A stretch of 64,000 bases of DNA from Sphyrna mokarran (lineage: Eukaryota). Shown here piece after piece: positions 21,001 to 27,000 of the stretch; position 1 is the stretch's first letter, and each line of letters begins with the position of its first letter. The DNA lies in contig JAGIQG010000001.1 in NCBI GenBank assembly GCA_024679065.1, positions 151,590,001 through 151,654,000 of the forward strand. Direction: 5' to 3'. The position numbers are program-made.

Positions 21001-24000
21001 CATTTAAGCACTTTTTTGTTACTTCAAAGCTTTTGCACAAACTTGGTGCTGCCAGAGATGGATCACTTGCAGGCATATGCCTTTGAATGCAGTGTGACTT
21101 GGAGAGTCAGCAGACTGTGCAGAGCAGGCCAGGTTACTGAAACAGAGAGGAGGGGAAAAAAGGTGATGAATTTTAATCCATTTGACTTTTACAATATCCT
21201 ACAGCTTGCTGTCCACTGTTACTTGAACAAGGCCACAAAGGTTACTACATTTCATTCTCCAAAGGGGCAGGCAGAGAGTGAGGAGGAGCACATAACTTTG
21301 TGAGGATTGCAGTTTCTCTATGGTTCCTTGTATATTTGAAAGAAAAAAGACACAAACAATGTTGTGATGTGGAGTAAAGTAAGCAATACTTCCAGTATCT
21401 GCACTTGTAAATCAGAAGAATGCATAAATTAAGAGGGAAGTGGGATTTGAGAGAAAAAAAGATTGAGTATGAGGCTGCCATTTTTGATGATTTCAGCTTA
21501 CCACTGGCCATGGCCTCAGCAATGGCTATCTCAATGACCTGAGGCCATCTTATACAGTACTGGCCTCAACAGCAACAATTAACTGCAGTCAGTCAACTGC
21601 CAACCATGTTGTCCTGCCAGAGAGAGGCATGAGAGTCAGTAAGACTTGGACATTTTATGTGGATGAAAAGGCTGTCATGGTTGAATAGTTGACAGTGTGT
21701 CTGTAATCTGTGAGCCGTGGATTTGAGGCGTGCAGTAGTGTCAAGTGGATAAAGTGAAACCTAATTGTTTGAGATTGTTGATAGGTAAATGGAATGTGTG
21801 GAGGATCAAACAGTAGCTGAGGTTATGGTATTGGTTATGATGTTTGAAGATTTCACAGCCAGAGGAAAGTTTTTTTTTCTCAGCATCTACCTTGCCAAGC
21901 TCTTAAGACTTTTAACTAGTATATTTTATGTAGCATATATTTTACCTTTCCATCTTTCAGAACAGGTATTAAGTAAAAAATCCCATCCAATTGCTAGATG
22001 AAACAGAAGTTTCTAAGGCCTTTTTGAAAAACAAACAGTTTTTTTCAGTAGCTTGGCCAATGTTTCATCTGCTATAAACAATGCAACCAAAAAGACCAAC
22101 TGGCTGTTTGTCATTTGCTAATTCTGGGAACTTGCTGTATGCAATTTGTTGCTCGATTTACCTACGTAGGAGTGAATTTACTTCAAAAATAACAAGCTAT
22201 AAATTATTTTAGGGCATGCTGAAGATGTGATGAGGAGATATGTGCATACAAGTTTGTTTATATGGTTTGGCAAATGTTCAATTTTGGTATGCGAGGTCCT
22301 ACATTTGCAAGTAAATAGAAAGTGAGTGTAATGCCTCTTGGAATAGAGCTTGCCAGTGAGGAGCCTCTGAAAGAGATGTAAGGATGACAAGTAATCCCTC
22401 CTGAATTATTAGTAAACAATACCAAACAGTAATAAATAATTCAAATGAAGTGTGGGTTAAAATAACAAATCCGTCATCTGGGGATCAATTATTGCGCTGG
22501 GGATACACATTTGTGCACCAACACTTCGTGTCGTCTCATCATCATTTACATTTTTTTCAGTTGTTCATTGACAGAATAAAACCAAAGCACTGAAAAATAA
22601 TTCTGCAATTTCTTGTTTCCTTCAGAGAGATTTAACAAATAACTTTGCTTTTTGTAGTTGAGAGCCTTTACAGACATACGAGATGATCTAGCTTTAGGTC
22701 ATGTGATTGTACTGCTCCAGCTGGACTGGCCTCGTGGAGAGAACCTGTTTCTCAAAGCAGTTGATAAAATCTGTCAGCAAGGATCATTTCAATATGAAAA
22801 CTTCTTCAATTATGTCACGAGTATCCTTTTACTGTTTTATTGTTTGCTCGGAACGTCTAAAATGCCGTCCTGTTTATTAATCACCTTTTATCTGTGAGTT
22901 TGATGTCAGAAGGCAATGGATTCAACTTCTATTCCTAAGACTTCACTTTGTTGCACTACTGAGAAACTGCTGTATTGGTGGAAGGGCCATTTTTGAATTG
23001 GGATGCTAAATTCAGGTCCTGTCTGGTCAGTCAGGTAGGTATAAAGAATGTGCCTGCACTGTGAAGAACAGATGATTTCTAATCATGTGTTGGCCAACAT
23101 TACTCCACACCAGCAGAATTGATGAATTTGTCTTTCAATTTATTTCTGCCAGTGTAATCTGACTGCACAAATTAACTGGTAGCTTCTACACTCATGATAG
23201 TGCTTAAACTTAATTAGTTGAAAAGCATTTGGAGCTTCGTATCTATCTGTTATTTTCAGCTGTTGTGTTTGGAAATCAGGAGCTCAAAAGATTAGAAACC
23301 AAAGTGTGTATCACCTCTAGATTTAGTATCAAATGAAGTGTGTAAGAATATTTGGAGGTCAATGACACTTGTGTTAATGAATTTCTGTTATTCTGTTGTT
23401 ATAGCATTTGTTTCTACTATGAGAAAAAGCATTTAATTGGATATTGCACTGTAGTATCTGTGCATCCCCCTGGCTGTGCACATGTCTAATTCTTTAACTT
23501 GAAACAAACTTTCTTGCCTTATTTGATTAGGTAGTTAAGGGAGCTCTGGTGCCACTGAAATCATTCCAGTTTGAATATGACTTCAGTGTTGATTGTGCTG
23601 CAATTTGTATTTTCAACAGATTCAACAGAAAGTCAGATCTCATATCGTGAACTTTAGGTGAAACACACACCAAGAATGGAAAAGAAAAATACTGAATTGT
23701 GCACTCATTTGGCTCCAACATGTTACTGAAGTCTGTGATAGAACATGCATAGTTACAATGCAGTGCTGGGCCCATGTGCAGTAACCACATAAGTGAAAAT
23801 GGAAGCAGCAGTATCCAAGTGTATTCTTTTCACATTGCATTAAAATGAAAATGCATTATTAGAACGCTCTTAAAATGGAATATCTCTGTACTGAAGTAAC
23901 ATTTTGTAATTTAATATAACTTTTAGCAATTAGAGTGCATGAGTAAAAAGGGGTAGAAAAATATGCTGTAAAGCTAAGGTGATTAGGGATGAAATAGAAG

Positions 24001-27000
24001 GAGATTCATGTGGAGCATAAATATCATTGCGGCTGAGTGACTTGCTTCTATATTGTATGTTCTCTGTAATTCTGTGTAATTTGTTTATACTTCAAGAGTT
24101 TACAAGACGTGATATTCTTGCATCTGAATTAATCAGATGAAATTGAATTCTGAATGTGCTCTCAGATTGGTGGTAGAAGAATACATTCTGCATCTTTTGT
24201 GAATTTATTAAAATGAACTAATGGAGTGTTATACTAAAATAACAATAGTCAACTTATCCTTAATCACATCTGTCGACATTGACATGTTGGAAGAATTTGC
24301 TTATCTCAGAACTACAGAAGGTGGTAAAATTCATCTAGAGCTCTTGCCAAATCAAGGTCTCCTGATAAAGTGAGTACTAAGCTTGTAAGATGATTATTGG
24401 CGCATACTGTGACTCATTGGAATTTTGCTGTTTGAGTAGCTCATGTTGCTCCTTGCTTTGTTACAGCATGTTGCAAGGAATATGTGTTGCAATTACTAAG
24501 GGAAAAAGATGCTGGAAAGAGTTAAATCTCTGAGAAGGCCAACAGTAGTTTGAAGTATCTTGGGAGATTAGTGAATAATTAACATTTCTTTTAAGCATTT
24601 AAGTTTTTCAGATTTTTGAATGTCCTTGGAACAGTTAGATTTTAAAGTTTCTTTTAAACATCAGTTAAATTTTTCTTTTGCTCAATTTAGTGATGGTTTT
24701 AAAATTTCTGAATGGTTAATTATGTTTATCCAGTGATTATTGTTACCATCCAGACCTGAAAAATCAAAGTTTTGTACTTCAAGTTTGTTGCAATGTACTT
24801 GGATTAGGGAGGGGACACTTGACCAAAGTTGTCAGTTGTGAACGCTATCCAGTACTTCCACTGAAAGTGTACACGTGGACACCAAATGAGTGTTAGATTA
24901 GATTTGATTGCGTTACTCCCTATTGTTGAGTAGACATCTGATGGTACTGATGCTCACAGGGGAATGAAATATTTTAGATGGGTTGCTTTTGTCAATGCAG
25001 TAATTATATTGACATACATCATTGTGAATGATGGGCTCCATTTGCTGGTGATGTTTGTGTACACCACACTGTTTTTCAGTGAAACCGCTATCAAATTAAA
25101 CTTGTTTAACCTTGGTTCAAAAGTTCATGCAGTTCCCTTGTTTTCATCAGATTCCCGACAGCAGTAATTAGCTGCCCTCTTATGCATCACAAAAGGCTGA
25201 TAAGTAAAAAGCATGCAAAGAGCAGGGTTATTTTCCTTCACAAACTCCAAAGTGTCTCTTTTCTTGTTAAAAGTGAAACTTTAATCATCTTGGTACAGGT
25301 ATACAAATATTTAGAACATACAATAAACCCACACTGTCTCTCTCTTGCACTGCTTTCTACACTATGGCCATACATCAAGGCTGTACACTGGATACAGTGT
25401 TGTTGGTTTTCAGTGCACATGTGGACCAGTGTGCAAGTGGCCATCACTGGTGTCAACTTACGTTGGAGGGAGATCAATTAGTACTACTTTTGCTGGGTTT
25501 CAGTAAGGCATCACATTTTTAAAATAGAAGGAAGTAAAAAGAGACAAAAAAAAGAAAAAACCCACTCCCTTTCTCATTATTGTCCCCACTGCCTCAGATA
25601 CTAACAACTGAGATAGAACTCTATTTAAATGCCATGGTATAGTACAATTGATTTGCGTGTGGATGTAATGCATGCGCGTGAGTGTGTATATTATAATAAT
25701 GATTACTGGAACCAAGAATTTTTGGAATTGCAGGTAAGGTCCAGTTTTCTCTTGATAACTAAATTATCTTTTCTTTTGAGAATTTCAGAGATAAACAACA
25801 CTTCAATAATTAACTTTCCTGCTGAGAAATTGTTTTAGTCAATGGGGAACTTGAGGAATTGTTCTTGTGTGAAAAATAATTGTTTTATTTAAAAACATCT
25901 TTCTGTTGTGGCCAGCTGTACTAACATACTGTTTCATTTTCACCTTTGGGCAGTTCAAGTAGCTAGCTGGACTGTATAAACTGAACAGCACTGTTTTTTT
26001 GAGAAATTAGATTTAATTTACATTTGTAATACACATGTCACTGATGTATTTTAACTGGCAAAGAAGCCAGGAGCTATGATTGAATTAATTGGAAATAATT
26101 TCCTCTCCTACCCTACAGAAAGATTTGGAATTTATATTGGACAGATCAAAGTAAAAAAAAAAATCTTGACCTGTTATACAAAATGGACACTCTAATGTAA
26201 AAAATGTTTTACAGTTCTATTCATCTGCTGAATCTGTAAATAACACATTTAGCTACTCTAGATGTTACAATTTCTCCCAAAAACGAGATATTTTCTGAAC
26301 TCTTGGATGAACATGAGGGAAAAAATGTTAAAAGGGGGTTAGAGTAGCTAATGAAATAAGGAAAATGCTACAGATGCTGGAATCTGAAACAAGCCATGAG
26401 GATGCCGGAAAAACTCGGCAAGTCTGCCAGCATCTATCGGGCAAGAAACAGAGTTAACTTTTCAACAGAATCAAAAGAAGGGAGAATGTGTTAGAGTTAT
26501 GGAAACTACAACAAAAAAGTAGCAACTTTAAGAGCAAACAATACATGGACTGATGTGAGAGGGGAAGGAAACATTTGTATTAAGACCGTGCGTATGTGGA
26601 ATACAAAAAGAAGTGGGAGGTTTAAGATGAGATGCTGCTGCTTCAGTCAGTGCTGGGCTTCACTGGAGCATTGCAGCAGGCCAAGAAAGAACACATGCTG
26701 AGTTAAAACAGCTAGCAGCAGGAAGATTGCAGTCAGGCTTACAGACTGAATGAAGGTGGTTCCGCAAAGCAGTCACGCAGTGCGCATTTAGTTTCTCCAT
26801 TGTAGAAGAGATTGTATTTGGAATACATTTGGAGCAGCGAATACAATAAACCAAAATGAAGGAAGTGCAAGTGAAATGCTTTTTAACCATTTATTAATGG
26901 TTTTACCTGAAAAGAGTATTTGGGGCCTTAAATGGTGAGAAGGTAAAAGAGCAGGTTTCGCATCTTCTGTGATTGCTTCGGAAGGGGATAAGGAGTCAGG

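What the first reader, a model, noticed from the sequence alone, without database searches (positions are those of the whole stretch)
22821..24278. INTS10 minor (U12) intron that appears to end in CG: a GT-CG intron
Seen: consensus U12 donor GTATCCTTTT (22821) and U12 branch site TCCTTAAT (24257-24264), with no AG between the branch site and the next exon. Keeping the conserved YVT-N-IDMLEEF needs the junction A|ACATT, so the intron would end ...TGTCG at 24275, 12 nt after the branch A. The AC at 24276-24277 would give AAT TGA (stop). The nearest AG (24247-24248) is in frame but lies upstream of the branch site and would add 9 non-conserved residues; an automated annotator might pick it. Established: the minor spliceosome selects its 3' site largely by distance from the branch point and tolerates unusual terminal dinucleotides. 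Inference: this is a natural GT-CG intron, possibly a rate-limiting step in a gene whose complex processes snRNAs.
Basis: partly seen in the sequence, partly recalled or inferred. Interest (0 to 1): 0.85.

Follow-up and report, generated by a model that had tools for sequence, protein, structure and literature searches.

The report
Shark INTS10 minor intron ending CG
In this shark-like copy of the INTS10 gene, a conserved minor-class (U12-type) intron has textbook start and branch signals but ends in CG instead of AG in the assembly, which is an unusual though mechanistically plausible variant that still needs RNA evidence.

Summary
The window (no N, not human; closest named ortholog Mustelus asterias, 443 of 448 exon residues) carries INTS10 exons on the + strand. 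The intron at 22821-24275 starts CGA|GTATCCTTT (9 of 9 of the U12 donor consensus). Its branch box ATCCTTAAT (8 of 9) puts branch A 24263 12 nt before the only junction that encodes the invariant Asn (human T627-N628-I629; 175 of 199 named homologs read T-N-IDM). That junction makes the intron GT-CG. The other 9 INTS10 introns in the window are ordinary GT-AG.

- There are in-frame AGs inside the next exon. One, at 24316-17, matches a 14-residue-shorter isoform annotated in four shark species.
- An AT-AC reading shifted by 2 nt is formally possible, but it fits the donor consensus poorly.
- The CG is a CpG in a strongly CpG-depleted genome.

I could not test whether C24274 is real or fixed, or whether the CG site is used. 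No reads, RNA or orthologous eukaryotic DNA were reachable.

Best reading (0.55): a real non-canonical U12 intron, with its 3' site set by distance and the terminal G, probably spliced inefficiently. Interest is moderate to low, and the "rate-limiting" idea is untested.

The parts
1249..31088 (+). 3' two-thirds of the INTS10 gene: 11 coding exons (1249-1418, 4202-4338, 9391-9544, 14306-14388, 16993-17139, 18048-18156, 19332-19411, 22658-22820, 24276-24369, 30161-30232, 30935-31088 with the stop codon).
   Evidence: tblastn of 14 named orthologs against the window. Exon peptides translated one by one and compared with 20 full-length orthologs (Mustelus asterias 443/448, Scyliorhinus canicula 440/448). 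Intron table: 9 of 10 introns are GT-AG.
22658..22820 (+). Exon upstream of the minor intron. It encodes LRAFTD...FFNYVT plus the first base (A) of the junction codon, so the intron is in phase 1.
   Evidence: PDB 8rbx_j residues 574-627, E=5.2e-28. Pfam INT10 positions 574-627.
22821..22829 (+). U12-type 5' splice site GTATCCTTT, preceded by CGA.
   Evidence: It matches 9 of 9 of the consensus RTATCCTTT quoted in PMC1635337. Eleven unnamed fish-type protein fragments and one named one (Goodea atripinnis) read through the same position as T-S-I, which is A|GT ATC.
22821..24275 (+). The intron as inferred: 1455 nt, termini GT-CG. It has no polypyrimidine tract (the last 40 nt are 52% pyrimidine).
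24247..24248 (+). Upstream AG. It is in frame with the U12 donor (+9 codons), but lies 15 nt upstream of the branch A.
   Evidence: None of the 232 stored proteins shows this +9 form joined to the donor exon.
24256..24264 (+). U12-type branch box ATCCTTAAT. The presumed branch adenosine is 24263.
   Evidence: It matches 8 of 9 of the consensus TTCCTTRAY (PMC1635337). The choice of the second A as branch point is recalled knowledge, not a tool result.
24274..24275 (+). Inferred 3' terminal dinucleotide CG, 12 nt after A24263. It is a CpG.
   Evidence: CpG observed/expected is 0.22 in the window and 0.20 in this intron.
24276..24277 (+). AC, 14 nt after the branch A. With the GT donor it gives AAT TGA (out of frame, a stop). 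With a donor shifted by 2 nt it gives a same-length AT-AC intron reading T-S-IDM.
   Evidence: The shifted donor ATCCTTTTA matches 4 of 9 of ATATCCTTT (my count). 0 of 232 proteins read T-S-IDM.
24276..24369 (+). Downstream exon: AC + [30 protein letters not shown] + AA, followed by GTGAGT.
   Evidence: (30 of 30 residues identical to several sharks).
24316..24317 (+). In-frame AG inside the exon, 54 nt after the branch A. Used with the U12 donor it removes 14 codons (T|KGGKIH). A further in-frame AG lies at 24292-93 (-6 codons) and another at 24319-20 (-15 codons).
   Evidence: The T-KGGK form occurs in 9 named proteins of Mustelus asterias, Scyliorhinus canicula, S. torazame and Heterodontus francisci.

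Best explanation
This is the conserved U12-type (minor-spliceosome) intron of INTS10, and in this genome its 3' terminal AG has become CG.

Proposed mechanism:
- U11/U12 recognise the perfect donor GTATCCTTT and the branch box ATCCTTAAT.
- The 3' cut is placed by distance from the branch adenosine. G24275, at 12 nt, is the only G within 10-15 nt of it. A terminal G also keeps the first-G/last-G match that a 5' G requires. Exon joining at 22820^24276 therefore yields the invariant Asn codon.
- The C at the next-to-last position probably lowers the efficiency of the second step. I expect more intron retention and some use of other sites: the in-exon AG at 24316-17 (-14 residues), or AC 24276-77 (a stop).

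Shown here: the signals, their spacing, the gene identity, and the fact that only this junction keeps the conserved protein.

Inferred: that C24274 is real, that the CG site is the main productive site, and that efficiency is reduced.
For: (1) Donor 9 of 9 and branch box 8 of 9 against the published consensus, with 12 nt from A24263 to the inferred end. The published optimum is 11-13 nt (passages in PMC3584512; PMC6717393).

(2) Exactly one residue spans the junction. Human INTS10 has T627-N628-I629, and Pfam INT10 positions 627 and 629 flank it. 175 of 199 named homologs read T-N-IDM.

(3) Anchored on the exact exon ends, no GT-AG, GC-AG or well-fitting AT-AC pair gives that junction. The other 9 introns of the gene in the window are plain GT-AG, so the local assembly otherwise looks clean.

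(4) The 42 nt between 24276 and 24317 still encode a peptide identical to other sharks (30 of 30 for the exon). This fits continued use of the upstream junction.

(5) Literature:
- A 5' G can splice to a 3' G or T (PMC4176328 discussion).
- Natural U12 introns with GT-GG (8) and GT-TG (1) exist, so the next-to-last base can vary when the last is G (PMC1557818, Table 2).
- Non-canonical termini work, often less efficiently, and U12 3' site choice is error-prone (PMC3584512).
- Human INTS10 has a minor intron whose retention rises when U4atac is defective (PMC9881141; PMC6800510).

(6) C24274 sits in CTGTCGACAT, not in a homopolymer.
Against: No RNA, no raw reads and no orthologous intron DNA could be examined, so neither the base nor the junction is verified.

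GT-CG is absent from the table of 66 non-canonical U12 introns of human, mouse, fly and Arabidopsis (PMC1557818). My recollection of Dietrich et al. 2005 (not held) is that most next-to-last-position mutants spliced poorly.

Four related shark species have annotated isoforms that use the in-exon AG instead, so a different acceptor might dominate here.

A CpG in a genome with CpG observed/expected of 0.22 should decay quickly. That argues for a recent, possibly polymorphic, change rather than an old fixed one.

Read-through protein fragments cannot settle the base, because GTC and GTA both encode Val.
Confidence: 0.55

Rival explanations
1. C24274 is not the species' normal base. It is either an assembly or consensus error, or a rare, possibly heterozygous and mildly harmful, allele of the sequenced animal. 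The normal intron is then an ordinary U12-type GT-AG (...CTGTAG|AC).
For: - A single A-to-C change separates the sequence from a canonical 3' site.
- GT-CG is not in the published table of non-canonical U12 termini.
- The CpG would be short-lived in this CpG-depleted genome.
- Rodent gene models that read through the intron tail have Glu before Asp-IDM, so the intron there ends AG or GG (P0160, P0161).
Against: - The base is not in an error-prone context, and the other nine introns and all exon frames are intact.
- About 4-5% of U12 introns do have non-canonical termini, often by one base.
- No data on reads or on other individuals could be reached.
Confidence: 0.18
2. The C is real, but the CG site is little used. 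The main mRNA joins the U12 donor to an AG inside the next exon (24316-17, or 24292-93), giving an INTS10 that lacks 14 (or 6) conserved residues, or else the intron is mostly retained.
For: - The T|KGGKIH form is annotated in 9 named proteins of four shark species, three of them in the same order as the closest relative of the window.
- AG 24316-17 follows a 65% pyrimidine stretch.
- Weak non-canonical sites tend to come with alternative 3' sites, for example BANP GT-GG (PMC4176328).
Against: - The AG is 54 nt from the U12 branch A, far outside the 11-13 nt optimum.
- In each of those four species the full-length T-N-IDM form is also annotated, as isoform X1.
- The skipped 14 residues are invariant from sharks to human and remain intact in the window.
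- The listings showed no -14 form for the other elasmobranchs seen, but the isoform lists are incomplete.
Confidence: 0.2
3. The intron is read in another register or with the upstream AG. One option is an AT-AC intron 22823-24277, giving T-S-IDM at the same length. The other is GT-AG ending at 24248, adding 9 residues.
For: - Both are in frame and have canonical termini.
- AC 24276-77 lies 14 nt from the branch A.
- A mapper or annotator restricted to canonical termini could choose either.
Against: - The shifted donor ATCCTTTTA matches only 4 of 9 of ATATCCTTT, and it would place the cut inside the TATCCTT box.
- AG 24247-48 lies upstream of the branch box and has no second U12-like box before it.
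- 0 of 232 stored proteins read T-S-IDM, or carry the +9 insertion behind the donor exon.
Confidence: 0.04

Closest known systems
The human INTS10 minor (U12-type) intron
   Same: Same gene. INTS10 is one of four Integrator subunit genes with a minor intron, and its retention rises in RNU4ATAC patients' cells (passages in PMC9881141; PMC6800510). The junction residues T-N-I are identical.
   Different: The passages I saw do not say which human intron it is or what its termini are, and I did not look at human DNA. INTS10 is not in the list of human/mouse non-canonical U12 introns (PMC1557818, Table 3). This suggests, but does not prove, canonical termini in mammals. Positional equivalence is inferred, not shown.
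Natural non-canonical U12-type introns of the GT-NG and GT-AT kinds (for example ARAF and SLC12A7 GT-GG)
   Same: U12 donor and branch box, first base G, last base G or T, one base away from GT-AG. They make up about 4-5% of U12 introns and often switch subtype between species (PMC1557818; PMC10639083).
   Different: The next-to-last base here is C. GT-CG is not among the 66 introns tabulated there. Whether it appears in the larger table of PMC10639083 or its preprint could not be checked (supplements closed; the preprint table is an image).
BANP GT-GG splice site
   Same: A non-canonical 3' site derived from an ancestral AG, conserved in many vertebrates, with alternative 3' site use only where the site is non-canonical (PMC4176328).
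   Different: It is a different gene and dinucleotide. Transcript evidence exists there and none exists here.
GT-CG introns annotated in Drosophila melanogaster
   Same: The same terminal dinucleotides, with RNA-seq junction support (8 of 8; PMC4528330, Table 3).
   Different: The table lists them apart from the U12-type rows, and all 8 have a similar alternative splice nearby. Here the signals are U12-type and the nearest in-frame AGs are 27 nt upstream and 18 nt downstream.
LKB1 AT-AC intron with a +1 A-to-G mutation (Peutz-Jeghers syndrome)
   Same: A U12 intron whose first and last bases no longer match is spliced at non-canonical sites (mentioned in PMC1557818).
   Different: That is a disease mutation at the 5' end. 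The details (use of cryptic 3' sites next to the normal one) are recalled, not read here.

Membership tests
U12-type (minor-spliceosome) intron | 5' splice site matching RTATCCTTT exactly at the exon end | tested here: met
   GTATCCTTT at 22821-22829, directly after the conserved ...NYVT exon. Consensus from PMC1635337.
U12-type (minor-spliceosome) intron | Branch box TTCCTTRAY close to the 3' end (optimum 11-13 nt) | tested here: met
   ATCCTTAAT at 24256-24264 (8 of 9). A24263 is 12 nt from the inferred last intron base. Optimum from PMC3584512 and PMC6717393.
U12-type (minor-spliceosome) intron | No polypyrimidine tract | tested here: met
   The last 40 nt are 52% pyrimidine, whereas the nine GT-AG introns end in T-rich runs.
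U12-type (minor-spliceosome) intron | No AG at the last two bases of the upstream exon (reported as incompatible with U12 GT-AG splicing) | tested here: met
   The exon ends ...CGA. Rule from PMC10853781 passages.
U12-type (minor-spliceosome) intron | Canonical termini GT-AG or AT-AC | tested here: not met
   The termini are GT-CG for the only junction that keeps Asn. This feature is typical rather than obligatory: about 4-5% of U12 introns lack it.
U12-type (minor-spliceosome) intron | Removal depends on U11, U12, U4atac and U6atac | not testable with these tools
   Needs knock-down or in vitro splicing.
U12-type (minor-spliceosome) intron | The orthologous position holds a U12 intron in other species | tested here: inconclusive
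   Twelve fish-type read-through fragments show A|GT ATC at the same codon, and human INTS10 is reported to have a minor intron. No orthologous intron DNA was available to confirm position, branch box or termini.
Natural GT-CG intron (one actually spliced at CG) | Transcripts carrying the exact junction 22820^24276 | not testable with these tools
   No RNA-seq or cDNA of this species could be reached. No stored protein is from the window's own species (best is 443/448).
Natural GT-CG intron (one actually spliced at CG) | The genomic base is confirmed and present in the population or in relatives | not testable with these tools
   No reads. The only open DNA collections are prokaryotic, phage, plasmid and E. 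coli. Read-through peptides are uninformative because Val is GTN.

The most novel reading that the evidence does not exclude
The CG end is fixed and maintained in a group of galeomorph sharks despite CpG decay. It acts as a built-in throttle: INTS10 output, and the ratio of full-length protein to the form lacking 14 residues, would track minor-spliceosome activity. Integrator in turn processes the snRNAs that build both spliceosomes. It would also be a natural demonstration that the minor spliceosome accepts any base before a terminal G.
Probability: 0.1. Interest if true: 0.6.

Novelty: new member of a known kind. Interest (0 to 1): 0.35.

Why it matters
If the CG junction is real and used, it adds the missing GT-CG member to the GT-NG series of natural U12-type introns. 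It would also give a natural substrate for asking how much the next-to-last intron base matters for the second step in the minor spliceosome.

It sits in a gene whose minor intron is already known to respond to minor-spliceosome defects in people.

In practice it is a trap for annotation. Pipelines limited to canonical termini will mis-model this exon pair: they will drop 14 residues, skip the donor exon, or choose the shifted AT-AC register. Shark gene models at this spot already show two of these errors.

If it is an assembly error or a rare allele, it has no wider meaning.

Tried and rejected
- **Orthologous intron DNA:** I ran none of them for this question.
- **Read-through peptides as a proxy for the base at 24274:** rejected. 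The codon is Val (GTN) in the window and in Chiloscyllium, so A and C cannot be told apart. Only the two rodent models were informative (Glu, so the intron ends AG or GG).
- **HSP-based junction test:** it was one codon out of register for introns 7 and 8, because one HSP was gapped. Its AT-AC 'solution' (22785|24244) is void. One search, anchored on exact exon ends, replaces it.
- **First junction census:** its pattern hit an unrelated upstream motif. It was redone.
- **First exon-identity table:** it chose a wrong frame for one exon. It was redone.
- **Motif counts over the window** are not enriched. Placement, not number, carries the argument.
- **Strong U2-type donor GTGAGT at 22894:** rejected. 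Its only in-frame AG partner starts the exon at 24310 and would put in 13 extra codons of intron-derived sequence.
- **Rfam scan of the whole window:** 0 matches. There is no snoRNA or other known RNA in the intron.
- **P0149** (43 residues, unnamed) has nothing to do with this locus.
- **Literature on GT-CG:**
  - 'GT-CG' with 'U12' gave 3 papers, none describing a U12-type GT-CG intron.
  - 'GU-CG' with 'U12' gave 0 papers.
  - A broader four-term search was not discriminating.
  - The main text of PMC7367187 holds neither 'GT-CG' nor 'INTS10'.
- **Papers and files I could not read:**
  - Dietrich et al. 2001 and 2005 and Levine & Durbin 2001 are not held.
  - Table 1 of PMC4176328 and Table 3 of the preprint 10.1101/2022.09.24.509304 are not held as text.
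  - GT-CG U12 introns may therefore be listed there.

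
Full report
**What the window is.** The 64,000 bases contain no N. They are not human. The exon peptides are closest to the INTS10 of Mustelus asterias (443 of 448 residues), then Scyliorhinus canicula (440), and Carcharodon and Cetorhinus (439 each) (20 full-length named orthologs compared). The source is therefore a shark near the Carcharhiniformes, and none of the proteins I obtained is its own.

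I did not build, search or fold a joined coding sequence or protein model. That step was left out, so nothing here rests on a spliced model of the window.

**Check of the observation.**
- The upstream exon ends ...TAT GTC ACG A at 22820 and is followed by GTATCCTTT (22821-22829).
- TCCTTAAT lies at 24257-24264. The next 11 bases, CACATCTGTCG, contain no AG. ACATTGACATG... follows.
- The upstream exon peptide aligns to human INTS10 (PDB chain 8rbx_j) residues 574-627 (E=5.2e-28).
- The open frame across the 3' end aligns from I629 onward, with human T627-N628 opposite the window's intron-encoded V-D.
- Pfam INT10 is matched at profile positions 574-627 and 629-658.

One residue therefore spans the junction. 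With the exon ending in A, only A|AC gives Asn. The intron is then 22821-24275 (1455 nt) with termini GT-CG.

Counts of the two motifs over the whole window are at chance level: 3 against 1.49 expected, and 8 against 6.18. What is not chance is that the donor motif sits exactly on a conserved exon end and the branch box 12 nt from the inferred junction.

**How conserved the junction is.** Two searches with single-exon peptides returned INTS10 homologs. The first gave 403 proteins with E<=0.001 among 405 candidates, and the second 219 among 247; the best 120 of each were listed. One cluster look-up added members. In all, 232 proteins were stored.

I split them by whether a source names them.

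| Junction form | Named (199) | Unnamed (33) |
|---|---|---|
| T-N-IDM | 175 | 12 |
| T-KGGK | 9 | 0 |
| T-KEFAYL (a carp ab initio model) | 1 | 0 |
| T-SI (runs on into the intron) | 1 | 14 |
| Motif absent | 13 | 7 |

T-S-I is what A|GT ATC encodes. A GT-type U12 donor at this codon is thus seen in 11 unnamed fish-type fragments and one named one (Goodea atripinnis). Three further unnamed fragments are tetrapod-type, could be human, and were set aside. Six unnamed hits (P0154-P0159) also look mammalian and were not used.

**The rest of the gene as a control.** Anchored on the exact exon ends, the ten INTS10 introns in the window are nine GT-AG introns and this one. The nine have U2-like donors (GTAAGT, GTGAGT and the like) and T-rich 3' ends. 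This intron reads CGA|GTATCCTTT ... ATCCTTAATCACATCTGTCG|ACA and has no pyrimidine tract (52% pyrimidine in the last 40 nt). All eleven exon frames are intact. The local assembly therefore looks sound, which makes a random error at exactly this base less likely. It does not exclude one.

**Alternatives for the 3' end.** One search lists every candidate.

With the U12 donor, the in-frame options are:

| Last intron base | Dinucleotide | Distance from A24263 | Effect |
|---|---|---|---|
| 24248 | AG | 15 nt upstream | +9 codons |
| 24269 | AT | 6 nt | +2 codons |
| 24272 | TG | 9 nt | +1 codon |
| 24275 | CG | 12 nt | 0 |
| 24293 | AG | 30 nt | -6 codons |
| 24317 | AG | 54 nt | -14 codons |
| 24320 | AG | 57 nt | -15 codons |

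AC at 24276-77 (14 nt) is out of frame and gives a stop.

If both cuts move 2 nt downstream, the intron is 22823-24277 with canonical AT-AC ends and the same length, and the protein reads T-S-IDM. I reject it as the natural event for two reasons. In that register the donor is ATCCTTTTA (4 of 9 against ATATCCTTT), so the cut would fall inside the TATCCTT box. And 0 of 232 proteins read T-S-IDM. It is still the choice a mapper limited to canonical termini might force.

**Why CG is mechanistically plausible.** From passages I read:
- The U12 branch-to-3' distance has an optimum of 11-13 nt. Non-canonical termini support U12 splicing, often less efficiently, and 3' site choice is error-prone (PMC3584512; PMC6717393).
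- A 5' A can join to any 3' base, whereas a 5' G joins to a 3' G or T, with G preferred (PMC4176328 discussion; PMC1557818).
- Table 2 of PMC1557818 lists 66 non-canonical U12 introns, including GT-GG (8), GT-TG (1) and GT-AT (7), but no GT-CG.

In the window, G24275 is the only G between 10 and 15 nt after A24263, and it is in frame. Distance plus the G-G rule therefore single out the same base that protein conservation demands.

Two further points are recalled, not read. Structures of the major spliceosome show the next-to-last A contacting the branch adenosine. Dietrich et al. 2005 found most next-to-last mutants defective. Both predict lower efficiency for C at that position.

**Evidence from relatives.** Nine named proteins carry T|KGGKIH. 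They are isoforms X2 and X4 of Mustelus asterias, Scyliorhinus canicula, S. torazame and Heterodontus francisci, plus an older S. torazame model. This is the U12 donor joined to the AG that lies at 24316-17 in the window, and it removes 14 invariant residues.

I saw no such form among the listed isoforms of the other elasmobranchs or of any bony vertebrate. The lists are the best 120 hits per search plus ten clusters, so they are not complete.

This fits a weak natural 3' site in some sharks, like the BANP GT-GG case, where alternative 3' sites appear only in species with the non-canonical site (PMC4176328). It is not specific evidence for CG:
- In all four species the full-length form is annotated as well.
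- The taxonomic pattern is patchy.
- Rodent ab initio models also mis-handle this intron (P0160, P0161).

Other mis-models at this spot are the Chiloscyllium plagiosum protein, which skips the donor exon and begins the next exon in the intron tail (...ACFK|VIHNLSLTTSVDIDM, P0153), and a C. punctatum model that starts inside the intron (P0144). The intron tail is conserved at the peptide level between the window (NLSLITSVD) and Chiloscyllium (NLSLTTSVD). Because Val is GTN, this does not reveal the base.

**Real base or not.** The CG is a CpG in a genome with CpG observed/expected of 0.22 (0.20 in this intron). If unconstrained it should decay, so the change is either young (possibly polymorphic) or maintained. 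I cannot decide between these. My estimates are:
- Real and productively used: 0.55.
- Error or rare allele: 0.18.
- Real but bypassed in favour of an in-exon AG or retention: 0.20.
- Other registers: 0.04.

**Comparison with what is known, and novelty.** INTS10 is already known as a gene with a minor intron whose retention rises, and whose protein falls, in RNU4ATAC patients' cells (PMC9881141 passages; PMC6800510). I did not verify that the human minor intron is this one.

Non-canonical U12 termini are a known class: about 4-5% in PMC1557818 and about 3.8% of conserved animal minor introns in PMC10639083, most differing by one base.

I found no description of a U12-type GT-CG intron:
- 'GT-CG' with 'U12' returned 3 papers, none of that kind.
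- 'GU-CG' with 'U12' returned none.
- The main text of PMC7367187 holds neither 'GT-CG' nor 'INTS10'.

However, the large tables are in supplements or images that I could not read, so GT-CG may already be catalogued. I therefore file it as a new member of a known kind.

**What stayed unchecked.** Raw reads; any transcript of this species; orthologous intron DNA of any eukaryote; supplementary tables of the survey papers; and the three older experimental papers that are not held.

Noticed in passing
window 30161-30232 (+): A 72-nt exon (NSSPPLGVLPQEFKLQPSSQTAD) behaves as a cassette. Elasmobranch isoform pairs of 733 and 709 residues differ by 24 residues. The Pfam INT10 profile matches the neighbouring exons at positions 629-658 and 660-709, leaving no room for these 24 residues.
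   Followed up: partly
window 10939-11553 (+), inside INTS10 intron 3: An open frame of 205 codons matches reverse transcriptase (Pfam RVT_1, E=2.5e-8, 34.3 bits against a cut-off of 29.6). It is a retroelement remnant on the sense strand of the intron.
   Followed up: partly
window 15382-15390 (+) and 31232-31240 (-): Two further exact matches to RTATCCTTT. GTATCCTTT lies inside intron 4 on the gene's strand, and ATATCCTTT lies on the opposite strand 144 nt past the stop codon. The total of 3 matches is within chance (1.49 expected; 16 of 100 shuffles reach 3).
   Followed up: no
window 24272-24286 (+): The junction lies inside the 6-base palindrome GTCGAC. The exon starts with a near-tandem GACAT-T-GACAT-G. 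This is why several neighbouring cuts (TG at 24272, CG at 24275, and AC at 24277 with a shifted donor) all stay in frame.
   Followed up: partly
window 22788-22796 (+): Heptranchias perlo and Heterodontus francisci have 692-residue isoforms that leave the donor exon after ...QGSFQ and join the cassette exon (P0136, P0145). That would need a donor at the codon pair CAR TAT. The window has CAATATGA there, so no GT is available at that spot.
   Followed up: no
window 31100-64000, both strands: No recognisable gene. 0 of 77 stop-to-stop frames of 70 codons or more reach a Pfam cut-off; the single hit is sub-threshold and looks like chance. Rfam finds nothing in the whole window. One short tandem repeat lies at 28432-28500 (period 30, 2.3 copies).
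   Followed up: partly
proteins P0153 (Chiloscyllium plagiosum), P0144 (C. punctatum), P0160 (Cricetulus griseus), P0161 (Microtus ochrogaster), P0035 (Cyprinus carpio): Public gene models of INTS10 are wrong at this intron in several species. They skip the donor exon, start inside the intron tail, or use an AG inside the exon.
   Followed up: partly
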